Below, in pieces: positions 58,184 through 64,000 of a DNA stretch of 64,000 bases. Positions within the stretch are counted from its first letter, which is position 1. Each line of letters opens with the position of its first letter. Source of the stretch: a virus (lineage: Duplodnaviria; Caudoviricetes); the IMG/VR virus record IMGVR_UViG_3300032283_000551, positions 1-64,000 of that record, one strand, 5' to 3'. The position numbers were made by a program, and so were the translations under genes. The notes beneath the pieces were generated by a model. The model made no database searches. It had not been told where the DNA came from and saw nothing but the letters and a program-made list of their open reading frames with translations.

Positions 58184-59122
58184 ATGCTTGAGCAATTTTT
58201 GTGGGTGGAAAAGTATCGTCCAAAGAAGATTAGTGATACTATTCTTCCGATCGAACTAAAGAAAACGTTTCAGCAATTTGTAGATCAAAAGAATATTCCA
58301 AATCTACTCCTCACCGGTTCGGCAGGTGTTGGTAAGACTACCGTAGCTAAGGCCATGCTCGAAGAACTTGGTTGTGATTATATTGTCATTAACGGCTCGA
58401 TGAATGGTAACATCGATACGCTTCGTAATGAAATCCAAAACTTTGCTTCTACCGTATCGTTCGCTGGTGGTCGTAAATATGTAATTCTTGATGAGGCGGA
58501 TTATCTAAATCCTAACTCTACACAACCTGCTCTCCGTAATTTTATGGAAGAGTTCAGTCGTAATTGTGGGTTTATTCTTACATGTAATTATAAGAATCGA
58601 ATCATTGCACCTCTACATTCCAGATGTTCGGTCGTTGATTTTAGTATTCCTAAGGATTGTAAGCCCAAGTTGGCATCGCAATTCTTTAAGCGTGTAATTG
58701 GTATTCTTGATTCCGAAAAAATTTCATACGATCAAGCCGTTGTTGCAAATGTTATCCAAAAGCACTTTCCCGACTGGAGGCGTGTGCTTAATGAATTGCA
58801 GCGCTATAGTGCTATCGGTTCTATTGACTCAGGTATTCTGACCAATTTCCAGGACCTATCAGTCAAGCAAATCTTTGATGCATGCAAGAAGAAGGATTTT
58901 GATGGAGTTCGGAAATGGGTTCATGATAATAGTGATCAAGATCAGGTTGCCGTATTTCGTTCGGTCTACGAAAATTCATTTGAATATGTTTCAAAGAAGT
59001 CTATCCCTGAACTGATTGTTATTATTGCTGATTATCAATACAAAGCGGCATTTGTGGTCAACCATGAAATTAATATGTTGGCATTCTTTGTAGAACTCAT
59101 GATGCGTCTGGAGTGGCAATAA
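58184..59122 (+). CDS. gp44: Clamp loader large subunit gp44
   Basis: LWVEKYRP, G.AGVGKTT, ILDEADYL, Q.ALR.F.EEFS.NC.FILTCN, LHSRC. Confidence 0.96.
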   Translation: MLEQFLWVEKYRPKKISDTILPIELKKTFQQFVDQKNIPNLLLTGSAGVGKTTVAKAMLEELGCDYIVINGSMNGNIDTLRNEIQNFASTVSFAGGRKYVILDEADYLNPNSTQPALRNFMEEFSRNCGFILTCNYKNRIIAPLHSRCSVVDFSIPKDCKPKLASQFFKRVIGILDSEKISYDQAVVANVIQKHFPDWRRVLNELQRYSAIGSIDSGILTNFQDLSVKQIFDACKKKDFDGVRKWVHDNSDQDQVAVFRSVYENSFEYVSKKSIPELIVIIADYQYKAAFVVNHEINMLAFFVELMMRLEWQ

Positions 59123-59643
59123 TGGCTGTTAAGCCCAAGCGTGGTAAACAAGCCGAAAAGGTAGATCCTAATTCTATATCTACCATTTTCGGCAGGGTAG
59201 TGAAACACGAAGAGAAGGAAGAAAAGGGCGCCAACATTAATCCATTTTCGTTTATCAACGATATTAATTTTGGTAAAGAATATATCTACAGCGATGAAAC
59301 AAAGTCATCGTTTGAGCCCTATATCGTCACCAAGGCCATGTCTATCTTTCCAGACACTCTTTCTGATGCTATCTTTTTAAACTCAAATTTTCATCTCGAT
59401 GAAAAGATGCAACATGACTACCTATTCTATAAGGTAGCCAAGCGCAAGAGATTCAAAAAGGATGCATGGTTTAAAAAGACAGAGGATGAAAAAAAGGAAT
59501 TAAAAATCCTCAAGGATATTGGTAAAATCATTAATTATAATCTAAATGAAACAAAACGATTCTGGAATATGCTTACAGAAGTACAAAGGAAAGACTTCCT
59601 GGAACAATATGTCTATCCAGACTCAAAGAATAAAACTAAATAA
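59122..59643 (+). CDS. gp62: Clamp loader small subunit gp62
   Basis: PF.FINDI; YI..KA.S.FPDT..A..LN; Q.DYL...V.KRKRF..W.K; between gp44 and regA. Confidence 0.85.
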   Translation: MAVKPKRGKQAEKVDPNSISTIFGRVVKHEEKEEKGANINPFSFINDINFGKEYIYSDETKSSFEPYIVTKAMSIFPDTLSDAIFLNSNFHLDEKMQHDYLFYKVAKRKRFKKDAWFKKTEDEKKELKILKDIGKIINYNLNETKRFWNMLTEVQRKDFLEQYVYPDSKNKTK

Positions 59644-59675: not shown

Positions 59676-60074
59676 ATGTCTATAATGGAAACATTCCTGG
59701 AAGTGAAACTTGCTGAGGAAGAAGATTTCTTAAAAATTAAAGAAACTCTTACTCGTATTGGTATAGCTTCCCATAAAGAGAAGAAGCTATACCAATCTTG
59801 TCATATTTTGCATAATCGCGGTAGATATTTCATAGTTCATTTTAAAGAACTATTTCTACTTGATGGTAAAGAATCTGATTTTACTGAAGATGATATTGGT
59901 CGTCGTAATACCATAGCAAGTCTTGTAGAGCAGTGGGGTTTATTCCGAATCGTTGACTATAAACGATTTGAGGAACCAAAAACACCTCTAAATAAGATTA
60001 AGGTTCTACCTTTTAAAGATAAAGATGAATGGACTCTTGTATCCAAATATACGGTGGGCAAGAAAAAGCGATAA
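59676..60074 (+). CDS. regA: Translational repressor RegA
   Basis: DFLKIKETLTRIGIAS...KLYQSCHILH..GRYFIVHFKELF.LDG. Confidence 0.96.
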   Translation: MSIMETFLEVKLAEEEDFLKIKETLTRIGIASHKEKKLYQSCHILHNRGRYFIVHFKELFLLDGKESDFTEDDIGRRNTIASLVEQWGLFRIVDYKRFEEPKTPLNKIKVLPFKDKDEWTLVSKYTVGKKKR

Positions 60075-60088
60075 GGATATATTTTGTA

Positions 60089-60439
60089 ATGTTTAAGTGG
60101 TTATTTAAGCCTAAAGAAGTGAAAATTATTATACGCGATAGAGAACTTCAAAGACTAACAGATCTTCTATTCCCACCTCTCGAGCGAATTGAACGTGACG
60201 GTGATCTTTACCAGGTGGATTATTCAGTCGATATGAACCTGGATTCAGCACTTCAAGATCTTAAGGATGGTTCAAACGACAAAACCACCCAAGAGACCAT
60301 CTCAAGGGTGTTGGATCGACTGATTGAAGCTAGAAAAATACTAAATGCTTATCCGGTGTTAGATGAGAATACCAAGTTTCTCATCGTGGATAATCTACCT
60401 AACGAAAAAGAAAGAGAGATTAATCCTTCTCGGGACTAA
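60089..60439 (+). CDS. Hypothetical protein
   Basis: ATG at 60089 after AGGA; 116 aa; converges with the minus-strand island. Confidence 0.55.
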   Translation: MFKWLFKPKEVKIIIRDRELQRLTDLLFPPLERIERDGDLYQVDYSVDMNLDSALQDLKDGSNDKTTQETISRVLDRLIEARKILNAYPVLDENTKFLIVDNLPNEKEREINPSRD

Positions 60440-60557
60440 CCTTCTCTTTACTTCGCTTATAAATCTTTTTAGACTCGACGACTCGTTTTCTGAACAAAGG
60501 TGTGTGCAGAGCCCGAGCAATTGGATTCCGCTTTTTGGGAACCGGGCGCTTTTGCAT
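60420..60557 (-). CDS. ArfA-like small basic protein (45 aa)
   Basis: AAGGAG RBS before ATG at 60557; MQKRPVPKKRNPIARALHTPLFRKRVVESKKIYKRSKEKVSPEKD aligns with the E. coli ArfA core [23 protein letters not shown].RK. Confidence 0.55.
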   Translation of the reverse strand: MQKRPVPKKRNPIARALHTPLFRKRVVESKKIYKRSKEKVSPEKD

Positions 60558-61017
60558 AACTTTTCTCCTTCTTATGTTTATTAAAACCAAGATAAAGTTC
60601 TGATTCCATACCGTGAGCCTCAACCTCCCATGGCCAGGTGAAATAACCCCCATCATTTTTTGAGTGATGGATATTATGCCAGGAACACACAGAAGAGTCT
60701 CTTAGGTAATCTTTAAGTTGACCTAGCGCATATTGTTTCACATGGACCATCTCATGCGCTAGCGCCAGCAAAGTCCGTTTTTTACCCATATCACCATCAA
60801 TGCGGATCGTAAACTCACGTGGTCGGATATTAATATCTTCCCACACACAATCCGCATCAATTTTATCTTTACGAACAAGTCCTTTCACAACCACAACTCG
60901 GATTTCGATATTCCTCAGCAGTCGTTTGCTCATCATGGTTTCCCCATAATGGACCAGCGACTCAAAGATCATATTCGGATCAACCTTTGACGGCCGATCA
61001 ATGAGTGTGATATGCAT
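60469..61017 (-). CDS. Zincin-like metallopeptidase (HExxH)
   Basis: LAHEMVHVKQY...PWEVEA. Confidence 0.75.
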   Translation of the reverse strand: MHITLIDRPSKVDPNMIFESLVHYGETMMSKRLLRNIEIRVVVVKGLVRKDKIDADCVWEDINIRPREFTIRIDGDMGKKRTLLALAHEMVHVKQYALGQLKDYLRDSSVCSWHNIHHSKNDGGYFTWPWEVEAHGMESELYLGFNKHKKEKSYAKAPGSQKAESNCSGSAHTFVQKTSRRV

Positions 61018-61226
61018 TAAAACTTATTCTTAGAAATATGATTCTTAGCATCCTTTTGAGTCTTAAAGTAAAGGATCGAACCATCACGGGCCCGGAGGTT
61101 ATTTTGCATGGTGGAATCCCACACAAAGAATTCACGGGTCAATGTGGATTCCATGACCTGGAAACGATTTTTGATCAGTTCCGAGACATAGTATCCTGGC
61201 AAGTTAATCTGAAGTATGACTGTCAT
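61017..61226 (-). CDS. Small hypothetical early protein
   Basis: First ORF downstream of the minus-strand promoter at 61279-61251; RBS-like GAGGATAG. Confidence 0.6.
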   Translation of the reverse strand: MTVILQINLPGYYVSELIKNRFQVMESTLTREFFVWDSTMQNNLRARDGSILYFKTQKDAKNHISKNKF

Positions 61227-61250: not shown

Positions 61251-61279
61251 ATTATAACAAACTTTCGGGGTAAAGTCAA
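61251..61279 (-). promoter_or_regulatory. sigma70-type promoter of the minus-strand island
   Basis: TTTTG-TTGACT-17-TATAAT. Confidence 0.75.
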
Positions 61280-61609: not shown

Positions 61610-61694
61610 GCGGGCTTGGTGAAATGGTAGACACAAGAGACTTAAAATCTCTCGGCTAAAAGCTGTACCGGTTCGAGTCCGGTAGCCCGCACCA
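61610..61694 (+). tRNA. tRNA-Leu(UAA)
   Basis: GCGGGCT/AGCCCGC acceptor, AGAGA-CT TAA AA-TCTCT, long variable arm, encoded CCA. Confidence 0.93.
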
Positions 61695-61737
61695 ACTACC
61701 TAAGATTAAAAATTACTAAATGTTAATACTTTTTTGG

Positions 61738-61766
61738 TTGACAGACATTCAAATCTATGGTATAAT
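61738..61766 (+). promoter_or_regulatory. sigma70-type promoter in the tRNA array
   Basis: TTTTTGG-TTGACA-17-TATAAT upstream of tRNA-Lys(UUU). Confidence 0.82.
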
Positions 61767-61785
61767 CCACATATAAACAAATTGA

Positions 61786-61860
61786 GGATCCTTAGTTCAG
61801 CGGTAGAACACCGGACTTTTAATCCGTATGCCCTGGGTTCAAATCCCAGAGGATCCTCCA
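61786..61860 (+). tRNA. tRNA-Lys(UUU)
   Basis: GGATCCT/AGGATCC acceptor, loop CT TTT AA, TTCAAAT T-loop, U73, CCA. Confidence 0.88.
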
Positions 61861-61893
61861 TTTGTTTGACCTTTATTATGAAAGATATATATT

Positions 61894-62073
61894 ATGTCGG
61901 AAGATTATAGGATTCAATTTTTGGATAATTCAGGTTGGCGTACTTGTGTTACCTTTACTTCCCGAGCCGATGGTGCTATGGTAATGAGGGAAATGCAACA
62001 AGCCCAGGTGTATTATCCGGAATACCGAATTCGATGTGTTGACCACAATGATCGACTGATTGATATGCTATAA
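61894..62073 (+). CDS. Small hypothetical protein (59 aa) within the tRNA array
   Basis: MSEDYRIQFLDNSGWRTCVT...YRIRCVDHNDRLIDML fills the gap between tRNA-Lys and tRNA-Trp. Confidence 0.55.
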   Translation: MSEDYRIQFLDNSGWRTCVTFTSRADGAMVMREMQQAQVYYPEYRIRCVDHNDRLIDML

Positions 62074-62083
62074 ATAAGTCTGT

Positions 62084-62157
62084 GTCGGTGAAGTGTTATG
62101 GTAGCACGTAAGTCTCCAAAACTTGAGGCGAGGGTTCGACTCCTTCCACCGATGCCA
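62084..62157 (+). tRNA. tRNA-Trp(CCA)
   Basis: TAAGT-CT CCA AA-ACTTG, G73, CCA. Confidence 0.9.
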
Positions 62158-62166
62158 ATAAGTTTA

Positions 62167-62244
62167 GGGCCAGTCTTCTAATTGGACTAGGAATCCAGAT
62201 TTTCAATCTGTTCAATGCGGGTTCGAGTCCCGTCTGGCCTACCA
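62167..62244 (+). tRNA. tRNA-Glu(UUC)
   Basis: CAGA-TT TTC AA-TCTG, TTCGAGT T-loop, CCA. Confidence 0.88.
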
Positions 62245-62281
62245 AGTTTTCTGTTGTTTGACAATTTGAATGTATAAATAA

Positions 62282-62353
62282 GAACGGGTAGCTCAGAGGA
62301 AGAGCGGATGCCTCTTAAGCATCGGGTCGAGATTTCGAAATTCTCCCTGTTCA
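62282..62353 (+). tRNA. tRNA-Lys(CUU), CCA not encoded
   Basis: GAACGGG/CCTGTTC acceptor, GATGC-CT CTT AA-GCATC. Confidence 0.88.
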
Positions 62354-62358
62354 TATTT

Positions 62359-62433
62359 GGATCCTTGGTCGAGTGGCTTAGGCAGAGGTCTGCAAAACCT
62401 TTTACAGTGGTTCAATTCCACTAGGATCCTCCA
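62359..62433 (+). tRNA. tRNA-Cys(GCA)
   Basis: GAGGT-CT GCA AA-ACCTT, U73, CCA. Confidence 0.92.
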
Positions 62434-62439
62434 GAGTTT

Positions 62440-62514
62440 TGGTTAGTAGCTCAATGGTAGAGCAGGTGACTGTTAATCACCCGGTTACAGGTTCGAGTCC
62501 TGTCTAGCCAGCCA
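62440..62514 (+). tRNA. tRNA-Asn(GUU)
   Basis: GGTGA-CT GTT AA-TCACC, G73, CCA. Confidence 0.93.
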
Positions 62515-62518
62515 GGTC

Positions 62519-62637
62519 GCACAAAAACTGTTCCTATCCGGTTTTGTGCATTTTGTAGATAGGATACGCTCTTACTGTCTGGGGGTAAGAGAAGAGATAA
62601 ACTTGCTATTGAAATCAATGGTGGGTTAGCCCAGACC
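62519..62637 (+). ncRNA. Candidate double-pseudoknot ncRNA between tRNA-Asn and tRNA-Ile
   Basis: Stem GCACAAAA/TTTTGTGC with loop TCCTATC pairing with GATAGGA; stem CTCTTAC/GTAAGAG with loop GTCTGGG pairing with CCCAGAC. Confidence 0.55.
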
Positions 62638-62643
62638 AAATTT

Positions 62644-62719
62644 GCTTCCTTAGCTCAGCTGGTAGAGCATTCGGTTGATAACCGAAAGGTCGATGGGTCG
62701 GGACCATCAGGAAGCACCA
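62644..62719 (+). tRNA. tRNA-Ile(GAU) with non-canonical T-loop
   Basis: TTCGG-TT GAT AA-CCGAA; T-loop GTCGGGA; A73, CCA. Confidence 0.88.
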
Positions 62720-62724
62720 AGTTT

Positions 62725-62799
62725 GCCGGATTAGCACAGCGGTAGTGCAATCGCCTTGTAAGCGATAGGTCGGGAGTTCAATCCTCTCATCCGGCACCA
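62725..62799 (+). tRNA. tRNA-Thr(UGU)
   Basis: ATCGC-CT TGT AA-GCGAT, CCA. Confidence 0.93.
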
Positions 62800-62805
62800 T
62801 ATTTT

Positions 62806-62895
62806 GGACGTGACATCGGGTGATGACAAGGGCCTTATATTCCCTTTGCAGCTGATTACTGCTTGGATAGGATTCGAATTCCTACACGTCTACCA
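62806..62895 (+). tRNA. Atypical tRNA-like RNA, probable UAU anticodon, tiny D-arm, long variable arm
   Basis: GGACGTG/CACGTCT-A-CCA acceptor; TAGGA-TTCGAAT-TCCTA T-arm; CATC-GGGT-GATG; AAGGG-CCTTATATT-CCCTT; GCAG-CTGATTA-CTGC. Confidence 0.65.
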
Positions 62896-62898
62896 AAC

Positions 62899-62995
62899 TC
62901 AAAGACTACCAGGATTAAATGGGCTCTCCTGGTTCAAGATGACTGCTAGTAAAACTGATAACCCCACCCATGGTTTGCAGGGCTCTGGTCTTTGA
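62899..62995 (+). ncRNA. Candidate structured ncRNA (closed multibranch with loop-loop pairing)
   Basis: 10-bp closing stem TCAAAGACTA/TGGTCTTTGA; CCAGGA/TCCTGG hairpin whose loop ATGGG complements CCCAT in a second loop. Confidence 0.5.
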
Positions 62996-63003
62996 TACTT
63001 TTT

Positions 63004-63077
63004 GCGGGATTAGTATAATGGTATTATCACAGCCTTCCAAGCTGAGGACAGGGGTTCGATTCCCCTATCCCGCTCCA
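63004..63077 (+). tRNA. tRNA-Gly(UCC)
   Basis: CAGC-CT TCC AA-GCTG, U73, CCA. Confidence 0.93.
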
Positions 63078-63080
63078 TTA

Positions 63081-63211
63081 TTAAGTGTTAGACATGCGTA
63101 ATGACCTACGGCTGGTCATCCCGGGAAACTGGGTTGCATCTTTGATTTGGGAAGAATCCGGATTCGACCCAAAATATCAATGATGTGGGTTCGAATCCCG
63201 CTAACACTTAA
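63081..63211 (+). ncRNA. 131-nt tRNA-like ncRNA with T-arm and extended terminal stem
   Basis: 10-bp TTAAGTGTTA/TAACACTTAA stem next to GTGGG-TTCGAAT-CCCGC; internal hairpins ATGACC/GGTCAT, CCCGG-GAAA-CTGGG and TTGAT..TTTGGG/CCCAAA..ATCAA. Confidence 0.65.
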
Positions 63212-63220
63212 CATTATTAT

Positions 63221-63293
63221 AGCAGAGAGGATTGGTATCCCATCTAGGCTCATAACCTAGACCACGGTTGTTCGATTCAACCCTCTGTTACCA
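63221..63293 (+). tRNA. tRNA(CAU) (Met/fMet/Ile2 undetermined) with minimal D-arm
   Basis: AGCAGAG/CTCTGTT-A-CCA; GGAT-TGGT-ATCC D-arm; TCTAGG-CT CAT AA-CCTAGA. Confidence 0.8.
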
Positions 63294-63297
63294 CTAT

Positions 63298-63366
63298 GGC
63301 GCTAGAACAGGTGTTCCGGTCGATCTCATAAGTCGACTTGTGTTGGATCGTTACCAACTAGCGCCT
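63298..63366 (+). tRNA. Atypical tRNA(CAU), minimal D-arm, ATCGTTA T-loop, no CCA
   Basis: GGCGCTA/TAGCGCC; GAAC-AGGT-GTTC; GTCGAT-CT CAT AA-GTCGAC; GTTGG-ATCGTTA-CCAAC. Confidence 0.65.
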
Positions 63367-63374
63367 TATAAATA
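63367..63374 (+). promoter_or_regulatory. Late promoter TATAAATA upstream of the tRNA-Ser pair
   Basis: Exact consensus; further copies at 62069 and 62273. Confidence 0.6.
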
Positions 63375-63386
63375 AGTTACTAATAT

Positions 63387-63477
63387 GGATAGGTGGCCGA
63401 GTGGTTGAAGGCTCTAGTCTTGAAAACTAGCGAGGGTTAAGAGCCCTCCGTGGGTTCGAATCCCACCCTATCCTCCA
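63387..63477 (+). tRNA. tRNA-Ser(UGA)
   Basis: CTAGT-CT TGA AA-ACTAG, long variable arm, U73, CCA. Confidence 0.92.
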
Positions 63478-63485
63478 GTTTATTT

Positions 63486-63575
63486 GGAATGGTGGCCGAG
63501 TGGTTTAAGGCTGCGGTTTACTAAACCGCCGAGGGTTTATCCCCTCCGTGGGTTCGAATCCCACCTATTCCTCCA
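63486..63575 (+). tRNA. tRNA-Ser(ACU) (A34 anticodon)
   Basis: GCGGT-TT ACT AA-ACCGC; D-, V- and T-arms nearly identical to the adjacent tRNA-Ser(UGA); CCA. Confidence 0.85.
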
Positions 63576-63598
63576 GTTTTATAAAAAGGATATAAAAC

Positions 63599-63763
63599 AT
63601 GTCTGGTTACTCTATTGATGTCTTTAAAAAAGCGGCATTTAATCATGAACTAGATAATGTATTATCATCTGAAGAACTAAAACAAAAGTTAGGATCCAAC
63701 CACACTATATTGGTTTCCTATCTTAAAGAACGTGTTAAAGAGATAGATAAACAATACAGTTAA
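63599..63763 (+). CDS. Small hypothetical protein (54 aa) within the tRNA array
   Basis: AAAGGA RBS; MSGYSIDVFKKAAFNHELD...KEIDKQYS; its stop abuts tRNA-Pro. Confidence 0.55.
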   Translation: MSGYSIDVFKKAAFNHELDNVLSSEELKQKLGSNHTILVSYLKERVKEIDKQYS

Positions 63764-63840
63764 CAGGGAATAGCTCAATCTGGTAGAGCGCTGCGTTTGG
63801 GACGCAAAGGTTGCAGGTTCGATTCCTGTTTCCCTGACCA
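63764..63840 (+). tRNA. tRNA-Pro(UGG)
   Basis: CAGGGAA/TTCCCTG-A-CCA; TGCG-TT TGG GA-CGCA. Confidence 0.93.
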
Positions 63841-63844
63841 TTTT

Positions 63845-63920
63845 GGGAGGTTAGCTCAGTTGGTAGAGCGTCACGTTTACACCGTGAATGTCATCGGTTC
63901 AAACCCGGTACCTCCTACCA
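63845..63920 (+). tRNA. tRNA-Val(UAC)
   Basis: TCACG-TT TAC AC-CGTGA, A73, CCA. Confidence 0.93.
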
Positions 63921-63927
63921 TTTTTAT

Positions 63928-64000
63928 TGCCTGATAGTTTAACGGTAGAACGCCGGTTTTTGGTGCCGGCTGTGTTGGTTCAAATCCAGCTCGGGCATCC
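63928..64000 (+). tRNA. tRNA-Gln(UUG), 3' end at window edge
   Basis: TGCCTGA/TCGGGCA-T-CC; CCGGT-TT TTG GT-GCCGG. Confidence 0.9.

What the first reader, a model, noticed from the sequence alone, without database searches (positions are those of the whole stretch)
60420..60557. Phage-encoded ArfA-like ribosome-rescue peptide
Seen: a 45-aa basic ORF with a strong SD, missed by the ORF track start; core RNPIARALHTPLFRKRVVESKKIYKR vs E. coli ArfA [30 protein letters not shown] (shared N.I...LH.PLFR.RV...KK...Y.R). It lacks the GKGS of the ArfA KGKGS motif and is about the size of the active, truncated ArfA. Knowledge: ArfA recruits RF2 to ribosomes stalled on non-stop mRNA. Inference: the phage frees ribosomes stalled by host-mRNA degradation or by defence RNases/anticodon nucleases, or acts as a dominant inhibitor of rescue.
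Basis: partly seen in the sequence, partly recalled or inferred. Interest (0 to 1): 0.75.

Follow-up and report, generated by a model that had tools for sequence, protein, structure and literature searches.

The report
Phage ArfA-like ribosome rescue peptide
A 45-codon gene in a freshwater T4-like phage encodes a stripped-down relative of bacterial ArfA, the factor that frees ribosomes stuck on broken messages; the kinship is solid, the function is untested, and similar phage genes have been noted before.

Summary
The ORF is real. It lies at 60557..60420 on the minus strand and encodes 45 aa (pI 11.1), with an AAGGAG Shine-Dalgarno 7 nt upstream. It overlaps the tail of the upstream gene by 89 nt. 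In that overlap the small frame is under purifying selection (pN/pS 0.12) and the other frame is not (2.2).

Homology to ArfA is well supported:
- A profile of 146 relatives aligns to enterobacterial ArfA residues 8-48 (hhalign 93.9%, E 1.6e-7), with one 3-residue gap that removes GKG of the KGKGS motif.
- That profile's only hit in an E. coli genome is arfA.
- The only significant solved-structure hits are ArfA chains.
- Bridging members pass Pfam's ArfA cut-off.

The window protein itself passes neither Pfam ArfA nor DUF7230. It belongs to phrog_20887 and a large family (1208 clusters) found in phages and Alphaproteobacteria.

It is the last gene of a three-gene operon with a conserved early-type promoter. 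It ends inside a terminator hairpin that holds its stop codon. In a sister phage the homologous terminator lies in frame before the stop, as in arfA.

Rescue activity is inferred, not shown. Phage ArfA genes are already annotated in two papers, and this scan has noted them often. Verdict: a new member of a known kind, of moderate interest.

The parts
60420..60557 (-). ArfA-like gene, 45 codons plus TAA. Core N11-P-I-A-R-A-L-H-T-P-L-F-R-K-R-V-V27, followed by a basic tail (residues 28-45).
   Evidence: sequence; pN/pS 0.12 in this frame; phrog_20887, E 7.6e-9; homology to ArfA.
60565..60570 (-). Shine-Dalgarno AAGGAG, 7 nt upstream of the ATG, inside the coding region of the upstream gene.
   Evidence: Conserved as (A)AGGAG in L001-L008.
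60405..60449 (-). Hairpin 60449..60411 (about 17 bp, dG -20.7 kcal/mol, z -2.8) plus U-rich tract 60413..60405. The stop codon (60422..60420) lies in the 3' arm. The stop of the convergent + strand ORF (60437-60439) lies in the same hairpin. Probable bidirectional intrinsic terminator of the operon.
   Evidence: Homologous to a strong in-frame terminator in L136, with one compensatory pair and two wobble-to-Watson-Crick changes. Rebuilt from different sequence in L008, with UAA in the loop.
60469..61017 (-). Upstream gene for a zincin-fold metallohydrolase (HEMVH at residues 88-92; invariant P-W-E-x-E-A at 129-134). The conserved protein ends near 60565. The last 31 codons overlap the ArfA-like gene and are not conserved.
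   Evidence: homologs are 145-160 aa; invariant columns; pLDDT 93.7; Z 10.7 to a YbeY-family protein, 9.6-9.7 to M1 catalytic domains; tail pN/pS 2.2.
61017..61226 (-). First gene of the operon, 69 aa, no known family. Its stop overlaps the start of the zincin-like gene (ATGA).
   Evidence: Conserved in L001-L008.
61251..61279 (-). Sigma-70/early-type promoter-like site, TTGACT-17-TATAAT with TG (11 of 12), preceded by an A/T-rich stretch.
   Evidence: The -35 and -10 hexamers are conserved in all close relatives, including the more divergent L001 and L002, where the spacer differs.

Best explanation
The ORF is a genuine phage gene for a minimal homolog of the RF2-dependent alternative ribosome-rescue factor ArfA. 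It belongs to the branch that lacks the GKG loop (phrog_20887; Pfam DUF7230 neighbourhood).

Shown here:
- It is the selected reading frame in the overlap.
- It is homologous to ArfA over the whole part of ArfA that is ordered on the ribosome.
- The family's most conserved positions (N11, L17, P20, the aromatic residue at 22, R23, R25, V26, K30, Y33, R35, K36) coincide with E. coli ArfA N14, L20, P23, F25, R26, R28, V29, K33, Y39, R41 and K42.
- It is the last gene of an operon with a conserved early-type promoter.

Inferred mechanism, by analogy with the ArfA cryo-EM structures (PMC5378476, PMC8012679):
- The basic tail (residues 28-45; 7 K/R of 18) threads into the vacant mRNA channel of a ribosome stalled at the 3' end of a truncated mRNA.
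- H18-V27 lies in the A site. Pro20 corresponds to Pro23, which packs against A1492/A1493.
- This segment adds a strand to the domain-2 sheet of RF2.
- The L17/L21/F22 patch corresponds to L20/L24/F25 and would hold the RF2 switch loop open, so that GGQ hydrolyses the peptidyl-tRNA.

The gene carries its own stop at the position of the active truncated ArfA. Transcripts ending at the hairpin would keep that stop, so in this phage the factor is probably made unconditionally and early. That would keep ribosomes available while host and phage mRNAs are being cut.
For: - Real gene: pN/pS 0.12 against 2.2 in the overlap, conserved SD and ATG, phrog_20887 at E 7.6e-9, and 1208 clusters at E<=1e-3 in 1.84 billion representatives.
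- Homology, forward: PDB profile search gives ArfA chains as the six best hits, E 2.2e-4, improved from 0.012 with a more diverse profile. hhalign of A4 against ArfA gives 93.9%, E 1.6e-7.
- Homology, reciprocal: the A4 profile's only hit in an E. coli genome is arfA, E 9.8e-6. PF03889's only hit in the 77-kb phage record is this ORF.
- Bridging members: P0118 and L127 combine the phage-type core with KGKGS(Y/F) and pass Pfam ArfA's cut-off at 31.4 and 27.6 bits. L107, an ArfA above cut-off, has TPKFR and Arg at the A18 position.
- Conservation profile.
- Structure: the AF2 model has a helix at 12-17 followed by extended chain (pLDDT 80.6), matching ArfA's short helix at 15-24 (PMC8012679).
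- arfA-like wiring in a sister phage: in L136 (same operon, zincin 47% identical) a 14-bp terminator with a U-tract lies inside the frame, 38 nt before the stop. Its hairpin is homologous to the window's.
- Literature: ArfA-domain genes are annotated in phage RXM (PMC8953757) and in pelagiphage HTVC027P, where the gene is highly expressed (PMC12753301).
Against: - No activity, ribosome binding or RF2 binding was tested; the complex predictor was unavailable.
- The protein itself is below Pfam's cut-offs (ArfA 15.4 against 25.5 bits; DUF7230 19.5 against 27).
- The KGKGS loop is shortened by three residues.
- The position of A18, where A18T blocks RF2 activation in E. coli, is Arg15 here and Lys or Arg in 80% of the family. 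The N-terminal minidomain may therefore pack differently.
- Most family members have K-Y in place of L24-F25, although the window keeps L-F.
- The host and its release factors are unknown. The nearest phages infect Methylophilales and Stenotrophomonas.
Confidence: 0.62

Rival explanations
1. ArfA-derived blocker. The peptide occupies the empty A site and mRNA channel, or binds RF2, without activating hydrolysis. It would compete with tmRNA-SmpB, ArfA or ArfB, and so shut down host rescue or tagging rather than perform rescue.
For: Arg occupies the position where A18T makes E. coli ArfA bind but fail to activate RF2 (PMC8012679). The GKG loop is missing. Many family members have almost no N-terminal segment before the conserved Asn.
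Against: L107, which passes Pfam ArfA's cut-off, also has Arg at that position. The window keeps the L-F hydrophobic patch and Pro that contact RF2 and the decoding centre. Free-living Alphaproteobacteria carry family members in ordinary chromosomal contexts, where a pure blocker would be harmful. A sister phage uses the arfA-type non-stop wiring, which makes sense for a back-up rescue factor rather than an inhibitor.
Confidence: 0.13
2. Targeting module for the neighbouring enzyme. The ArfA-like peptide works with the upstream zincin-fold metallohydrolase, bringing it to stalled ribosomes or being processed or controlled by it, rather than acting through a release factor.
For: The small ORF overlaps or directly follows a homolog of this enzyme in several lineages where the enzyme is only 43-62% identical (L009-L014, L113, L136, L138). 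One contig carries an in-frame fusion of the two (P0129, L112). The enzyme's best structural match is the YbeY family (Z 10.7).
Against: All linked cases share the same T4-like RegA-gp62-gp44 neighbourhood, so inherited gene order explains them. Marine homologs of the enzyme have no ArfA-like ORF nearby. ArfA-like genes in Acinetobacter, Sinorhizobium and Agrobacterium phages and in Parvibaculum have other neighbours. The fusion is a single contig. The enzyme has a gluzincin-type HExxH...E site, not YbeY's HxxxHxxxxxH.
Confidence: 0.08
3. A basic nucleic-acid-binding mini-protein whose likeness to ArfA reflects composition and short length, with a role unrelated to ribosomes.
For: The protein is short and 36% K/R. 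It is below both Pfam cut-offs. The Foldseek matches are not significant (E about 4).
Against: The shared positions include non-basic residues (N, I, L, H, P, L, F, V, Y). The profile-profile E-value is 1.6e-7. The genome-wide reciprocal searches each return a single, specific hit. A continuum of intermediates reaches sequences above Pfam ArfA's cut-off.
Confidence: 0.05
4. Not a separate gene. The region only encodes the C-terminal tail of the 182-aa upstream ORF, or a frameshift fusion product.
For: The upstream ORF is open across the region, and gene callers call it at 182-184 aa.
Against: The tail frame has pN/pS 2.2, whereas the body of the same ORF has 0.13. Homologs end at 145-160 aa, and the phrog profile ends at residue 151. 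No slippery site or stop lies at the junction, and moving into the small frame would need a +1 shift.
Confidence: 0.02

Closest known systems
ArfA (YhdL) of E. coli and other Gamma- and Betaproteobacteria; Pfam PF03889; PDB 5MGP, 5MDV, 5U4I, 5H5U
   Same: Both are tiny basic proteins. 13 of 23 residues are identical over the A-site segment, including N, I, L, H, P, L, F, R, R, V and KK. Y-x-R-K is conserved in the tail. Both have a short helix followed by extended chain. The phage peptide's length equals the ribosome-ordered, active part of ArfA. Both genes lie 3' end to 3' end with a convergent gene and end in a hairpin.
   Different: The phage peptide has a three-residue deletion that removes GKG of KGKGS. 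It has Arg at the A18 position and a shorter N-terminus (10 residues before the Asn, against 13). It lacks the hydrophobic C-terminal extension. It has its own stop codon in place of the obligatory non-stop mRNA. It is phage-borne and sits in an early operon. It scores below Pfam's gathering score.
Pfam DUF7230 (PF23876) and PHROG phrog_20887, both listed as 'unknown function'
   Same: DUF7230 is the window protein's best Pfam match (19.5 bits), and phrog_20887 matches at E 7.6e-9. 63 of 146 relatives match DUF7230, with a best E of 3.4e-11. All share the GKG-less N-P-I-A-K-x-L-R-x-P-(K/L)-(Y/F)-R-x-R-V-V-x-S-K-K-x-Y-x-R-K core.
   Different: The window protein is below DUF7230's cut-off of 27 bits. 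It belongs to the minority (about a quarter) that keeps ArfA's P-L-F instead of P-K-Y. No paper in the held library mentions DUF7230.
Phage genes already annotated as ArfA: Citromicrobium phage RXM g10 (PMC8953757) and pelagiphage HTVC027P gp30 (PMC12753301); also JGI's name for homolog P0003
   Same: These are phage-borne small proteins with ArfA similarity. P0003 is 78% identical to the window protein and is named 'stalled ribosome alternative rescue factor ArfA' by JGI. HTVC027P gp30 is reported as highly expressed.
   Different: Those are annotations without functional tests, and I did not fetch their sequences. In GenBank the cultured-phage homologs (Acinetobacter ZZ1, Acj61 and Ac42; Sinorhizobium phiM12, phiM7 and phiN3; Agrobacterium OLIVR5) are labelled 'hypothetical protein'.
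ArfT (Francisella) and BrfA (Bacillus subtilis)
   Same: Both are short release-factor-dependent rescue peptides with a basic tail that probes the mRNA channel. BrfA and ArfA are made from non-stop mRNAs (PMC6299226, PMC6881298, PMC8012679).
   Different: No sequence relationship to either was detected here. ArfT can use RF1 or RF2. Which release factor the phage peptide would use is unknown.

Membership tests
ArfA (Pfam PF03889) | Score above Pfam's gathering threshold (25.5 bits) | tested here: not met
   15.4 bits, E 0.013. 13.6 bits in the six-frame search of the phage record.
ArfA (Pfam PF03889) | Profile-level homology to bona fide ArfA across the ribosome-ordered region | tested here: met
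   hhalign 93.9%, E 1.6e-7, covering ArfA residues 8-48. PDB hmmsearch E 2.2e-4, with ArfA chains as the top six hits. The family profile hits only arfA in E. coli.
ArfA (Pfam PF03889) | Central A-site segment N-x-I-x3-L-H-x-P-L-F-R-x-R-V, including the hydrophobic patch L19/L24/F25 and Pro23 | tested here: met
   N11, I13, L17, H18, P20, L21, F22, R23, R25 and V26 are identical to ArfA. L19 is replaced by A16 (residue roles from PMC5378476).
ArfA (Pfam PF03889) | Conserved KGKGS motif in the tail | tested here: not met
   The tail reads KK-I-Y with a 3-residue gap where ArfA has KKGKGSY. According to PMC6299226, none of these residues is individually essential in E. coli ArfA.
ArfA (Pfam PF03889) | Basic C-terminal tail long enough to fill the mRNA channel (E. 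coli ArfA is active when truncated at N47 and inactive after M40) | tested here: inconclusive
   The tail runs to the equivalent of ArfA residue ~51 but is three residues shorter. It has 7 K/R among 18 residues (thresholds from PMC5378476). Whether it fits the channel was not tested.
ArfA (Pfam PF03889) | Small residue at A18 (A18T abolishes RF2 activation) | tested here: not met
   Arg15 aligns with A18. L107, which scores 38.9 bits against Pfam ArfA, also has Arg there, so this feature does not define the whole family.
ArfA (Pfam PF03889) | Expression from a non-stop mRNA (a hairpin cleaved by RNase III, or a terminator before the stop) | tested here: not met
   The frame reaches TAA inside the 3' arm of the hairpin, so a transcript ending at the U-tract keeps its stop. 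In sister phage L136 the homologous terminator does lie in frame, 38 nt before the stop. Transcript 3' ends were not mapped.
ArfA (Pfam PF03889) | Binds non-stop 70S ribosomes and recruits or activates RF2 for peptidyl-tRNA hydrolysis | not testable with these tools
   The complex predictor was unavailable, and biochemistry is required.
DUF7230 (Pfam PF23876) | Score above the gathering threshold (27 bits) | tested here: not met
   19.5 bits, E 0.0011, the best Pfam hit. Relatives P0036 and P0037 pass at 28.4 and 30.8 bits.
phrog_20887 | Significant match to the PHROG profile | tested here: met
   E 7.6e-9, 36.4 bits, residues 8-37 on profile positions 2-31 of 46.

The most novel reading that the evidence does not exclude
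The ArfA-like peptide and the overlapping zincin-fold metallohydrolase form one functional module. The peptide's mRNA-channel-probing tail would deliver the hydrolase to ribosomes stalled on truncated mRNA, as a complex or as the fusion seen in P0129. The enzyme would then cut a nascent chain, a factor or rRNA there. This would be a phage-made, ribosome-targeted enzyme rather than a simple release-factor adaptor.
Probability: 0.07. Interest if true: 0.8.

Novelty: new member of a known kind. Interest (0 to 1): 0.4.

Why it matters
If the peptide works as inferred, T4-like phages of freshwater proteobacteria carry their own unregulated back-up for trans-translation. That would keep ribosomes usable while mRNAs are being destroyed by the phage or by host defence RNases.

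At family level, the data tie more than a thousand sequence clusters now filed as 'unknown function' (DUF7230, phrog_20887, GenBank 'hypothetical protein') to ArfA. They also place ArfA relatives in about 9% of sampled genomes of an alphaproteobacterial class, a group in which a recent survey found no arfA.

The pair formed by this window (stop inside the terminator) and sister phage L136 (terminator in frame before the stop) offers a natural comparison of unregulated and tmRNA-gated versions of the same gene.

None of this is new in kind. Phage ArfA has been annotated before, and this scan has flagged it on many other genomes.

Tried and rejected
- Complex prediction (peptide with E. coli RF2) was unavailable, so no binding test was made.
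- The protein-atlas search could not read the sequence because the machine was busy.
- Foldseek with the peptide model returned only four rows, all ArfA chains on the 70S, but at E 3.6-5.4. These are not significant and are partly driven by sequence, so I do not count them.
- Metatranscriptome contigs of run X20 cover 60300-61163 at 90-95% likeness, including the small ORF. Contigs cannot show strand, ends or that the RNA is not contaminating DNA, so this is no evidence of expression.
- The contig break at 60412/60417 in that run was considered as a transcript end and rejected for the same reason.
- Efforts to collect diverse ArfA sequences returned only Enterobacteriaceae. A six-frame Pfam ArfA search of 300 sampled genomes of the E. 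coli class found only 4, so the ArfA side of the hhalign comparison is shallow.
- tblastn of family member P0036 against phages found nothing.
- Programmed frameshifting from the zincin frame into the small frame was rejected. It would need a +1 shift, there is no slippery site or stop at the junction, and the ORF has its own SD and ATG.
- No tmRNA gene was found in the window by ARAGORN.
- NCBIfam gave no hit.

Full report
**Setting.** The window is part of a 77-kb IMG/VR virus record. Around the finding lie the T4-type clamp loader genes gp44 (58184-59122) and gp62 (59113-59643) and the translational repressor RegA (59676-60074, phrog_242 E 2.7e-57), all on the + strand. The nearest cultured phages by gp44 are Methylophilales phage Melnitz (61.5% identity) and Stenotrophomonas phage DLP_6 (59%). 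DNA holders of the stretch are mostly freshwater metagenomes. Sixteen tRNA genes start at 61610.

On the minus strand, 60557..60420 reads a 45-residue ORF ending in TAA. AAGGAG lies at 60570..60565, 7 nt before the ATG. The peptide has 16 K/R and 4 D/E, with pI 11.1.

The ORF overlaps the last 89 nt of the upstream 182-codon ORF (61017..60469). I compared the window with six distinct IMG/VR relatives that are 81-96% identical in DNA:
- The small frame has pN/pS 0.12 in the overlap.
- The tail of the upstream ORF has 2.2, and the third frame 1.6.
- The body of the upstream ORF has 0.13.
- Variable columns by codon position of the small frame are 6/3/16.

Homologs of the upstream protein are typically 145-160 aa, and its PHROG profile ends at residue 151. 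The small ORF is therefore the selected frame, and the 31-residue tail of the upstream ORF carries no signal of its own. Gene callers miss the small ORF for this reason (L113).

**Homology to ArfA.**
- *The single sequence is weak against Pfam.* DUF7230 scores 19.5 bits (cut-off 27) and ArfA 15.4 bits (cut-off 25.5). It matches phrog_20887 at E 7.6e-9.
- *Profiles do better against solved structures.* A profile of four close relatives hit only ArfA chains at E 0.012. A profile of nine more diverse phage sequences improved this to 2.2e-4. ArfA took the six best places, and the alignment ran from ArfA K13 to K43 across a 3-residue gap.
- *The family is large.* That profile found 1208 clusters at E<=1e-3 among 1.84 billion representatives, mostly proteins of 40-70 aa.
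- *Profile against profile.* An alignment of 146 of these compared with enterobacterial ArfA gives hhalign probability 93.9%, E 1.6e-7, over ArfA residues 8-48. The only gap removes G35-K36-G37.
- *Pfam scan of the family.* Of the 146 members, 63 match DUF7230 (best 3.4e-11) and 13 match ArfA (best 1.6e-9) at E<=0.01.
- *Reciprocal specificity.* The family profile searched in six frames over a whole E. coli genome hits one place, arfA, at E 9.8e-6. Pfam's ArfA model hits one place in the phage record, this ORF.
- *Intermediates exist.* P0118 and the alphaproteobacterial L127 combine the phage-type core with KGKGS(Y/F) and pass Pfam ArfA's cut-off at 31.4 and 27.6 bits. L107, an ArfA at 38.9 bits, has T-P-K-F-R and Arg at the A18 position.

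I conclude that the GKG-less family and ArfA are one homologous group in which the GKG loop comes and goes.

**What is conserved.** In the family the near-invariant positions are N11 (95%), A14 (100%), L17 (99%), P20 (91%), an aromatic residue at 22 (100%), R/K23, R25 (92%), V/I26-27, K30, Y33 (99%), R35 (99%) and K36 (88%). Eleven of these carry the same or an equivalent residue in E. coli ArfA: N14, L20, P23, F25, R26, R28, V29, K33, Y39, R41 and K42.

According to the cryo-EM work (PMC5378476; review PMC8012679):
- ArfA residues 21-30 lie in the A site.
- Pro23 packs on A1492/A1493.
- L19/L24/F25 hold Trp319 of the RF2 switch loop.
- A strand pairs with RF2 domain 2.
- Residues 31-48 fill the mRNA tunnel.
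- Truncation at N47 is tolerated, and truncation after M40 is not.

The window peptide keeps H, P, L and F exactly and reaches the equivalent of residue ~51. An AF2 model built on the family alignment gives a helix at 12-17 followed by extended chain (pLDDT 80.6), as in ArfA.

The differences are the missing GKG, Arg15 where A18T inactivates E. coli ArfA, and a shorter N-terminus.

**Operon and 3' end.**
- *Promoter.* A TTGACT-17-TATAAT site with TG lies at 61279..61251. Both hexamers are conserved in all close relatives, even where the spacer differs.
- *Genes.* The promoter precedes a 69-codon ORF, the zincin-like gene and the ArfA-like gene.
- *Hairpin.* The ArfA-like gene ends in a hairpin at 60449..60411 (dG -20.7, z -2.8) followed by a U-rich tract. 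The TAA lies in the 3' arm, and the stop of the convergent + strand ORF lies in the same hairpin.
- *Conservation of the hairpin.* It recurs in L002 (z -4.8) and L004 (z -3.8). In L008 the last codons are unrelated, yet a 17-bp hairpin is rebuilt with UAA in its loop (z -4.3). More distant relatives with the same operon (L009, L013, L113, L138) lack it.
- *Sister phage L136.* Following a lead from earlier notes of this scan, I examined L136, which has the same operon and a zincin 47% identical. Its ArfA-like frame (58 codons) runs through a strong 14-bp terminator with a U-tract at 2064-2099 and reaches its stop only at 2135-2137.
- *The two hairpins are homologous.* The L136 hairpin aligns with the window's and differs by one fully compensatory pair and two wobble-to-Watson-Crick changes. 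A 2-nt indel just upstream shifts the frame relative to the stem.

L136 thus has the arfA-type non-stop design, while the window clade has a stop inside the stem and should give a message with a usable stop. This is the main reason I favour a rescue factor over an inhibitor, and an unregulated version in this phage. Transcript ends were not measured.

**Distribution.**
- *Cultured phages.* Homologs lie in T4-like Acinetobacter phages, in Sinorhizobium, Rhizobium and Agrobacterium phages, and in Roseobacter and Pelagibacter phages. Nearly all are labelled hypothetical.
- *Bacterial chromosomes.* A Parvibaculum homolog sits in an ordinary chromosomal context. The family profile finds a match in 28 of 301 sampled genomes of that class. 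A published nhmmer survey found arfA in 0 of 2376 Alphaproteobacteria (PMC11633108).
- *Prior annotation.* Two papers annotate ArfA in phages without testing it (PMC8953757; PMC12753301, which reports high expression). JGI names a 78%-identical homolog ArfA. This scan holds 403 notes in at least 315 genomes that match a word search for 'ArfA ribosome rescue phage'. All eight notes shown describe ArfA-like phage peptides, and one reaches the same DUF7230-ArfA link.

**The neighbour.** The upstream protein has invariant H88-E-x-x-H92 and P129-W-E-x-E-A134. It folds confidently (pLDDT 93.7) into a zincin fold. VIA-align scores are Z 10.7 to the YbeY-family protein AQ_1354, 9.6-9.7 to M1 aminopeptidase catalytic domains, 8.9 to E. 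coli YbeY and 7.9 to Wss1. Foldseek is weak, with a best E of 3.5e-3.

The ArfA-like ORF overlaps or follows a homolog of this protein in L009-L014, L113, L136 and L138, and is fused to it in P0129. All these share the RegA-gp62-gp44 neighbourhood. Marine homologs of the enzyme lack the small ORF. Inherited gene order is enough to explain the link, and a functional link remains a low-probability possibility.

**Verdict.** The gene is real and it is an ArfA homolog. It is most likely a release-factor-dependent rescue factor made early and without tmRNA gating (confidence about 0.6). It is a new member of a known kind, in a family that databases still list as unknown.

Noticed in passing
window 60469-61017 (-): The upstream gene encodes a small zincin-fold metallohydrolase (HEMVH; invariant P-W-E-x-E-A) with no Pfam family. 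Structural scores are Z 10.7 to a YbeY-family protein, 9.6-9.7 to M1 aminopeptidase catalytic domains and 7.9 to Wss1. Its last 31 codons are a non-conserved overprint on the ArfA-like gene.
   Followed up: partly
L112:1184-1774 (protein P0129): A 196-aa ORF on a phage-like contig is an in-frame fusion of the zincin-like protein and an ArfA-like peptide, with the internal Met retained.
   Followed up: partly
L136:1961-2137, terminator at 2064-2099: In a sister phage the ArfA-like frame runs through a strong intrinsic terminator and reaches its stop 38 nt later, after a hydrophobic extension (G-L-T-F-F-S-I-G-S-C-G-G...). This is an arfA-style non-stop design. A second hairpin holding the UAG follows at about 2114-2150.
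   Followed up: partly
L120-L131 (genomes G302-G603): ArfA-family ORFs were found in 28 of 301 sampled genomes of the class of a Parvibaculum MAG. Some carry KGKGSF and pass Pfam ArfA's cut-off (L127). A published survey reports arfA in 0 of 2376 Alphaproteobacteria. Prophage origin was excluded only for Parvibaculum.
   Followed up: partly
L024:5025-5650 (E. coli mscL/arfA) compared with window 60029-60557: E. coli arfA overlaps convergent mscL by 4 bp at the 3' ends. The phage gene overlaps a convergent ORF by 20 bp and shares a hairpin with it. The Parvibaculum homolog overlaps a convergent LysR gene by 28 bp. Convergent 3' overlap recurs across the family.
   Followed up: no
window 61251-61279 (-): A near-consensus sigma-70 promoter with an extended -10 and an A/T-rich upstream stretch is conserved in all close relatives. 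It probably serves as an early promoter for the three-gene operon.
   Followed up: partly
window 61610-64000 (+): ARAGORN finds an array of 16 tRNA genes starting about 330 nt beyond the operon's promoter, and no tmRNA.
   Followed up: no
OX359470.1 13745-13840 (Ochrobactrum phage ORM_20): The homolog of the ArfA-like peptide lies under a feature annotated 'Rz-like spanin', which is probably a misannotation.
   Followed up: no
window 60029-60439 (+): A convergent ORF downstream of regA has no known family. Relatives start it at an internal Met (115-119 aa), so the 136-aa reading is probably too long.
   Followed up: no
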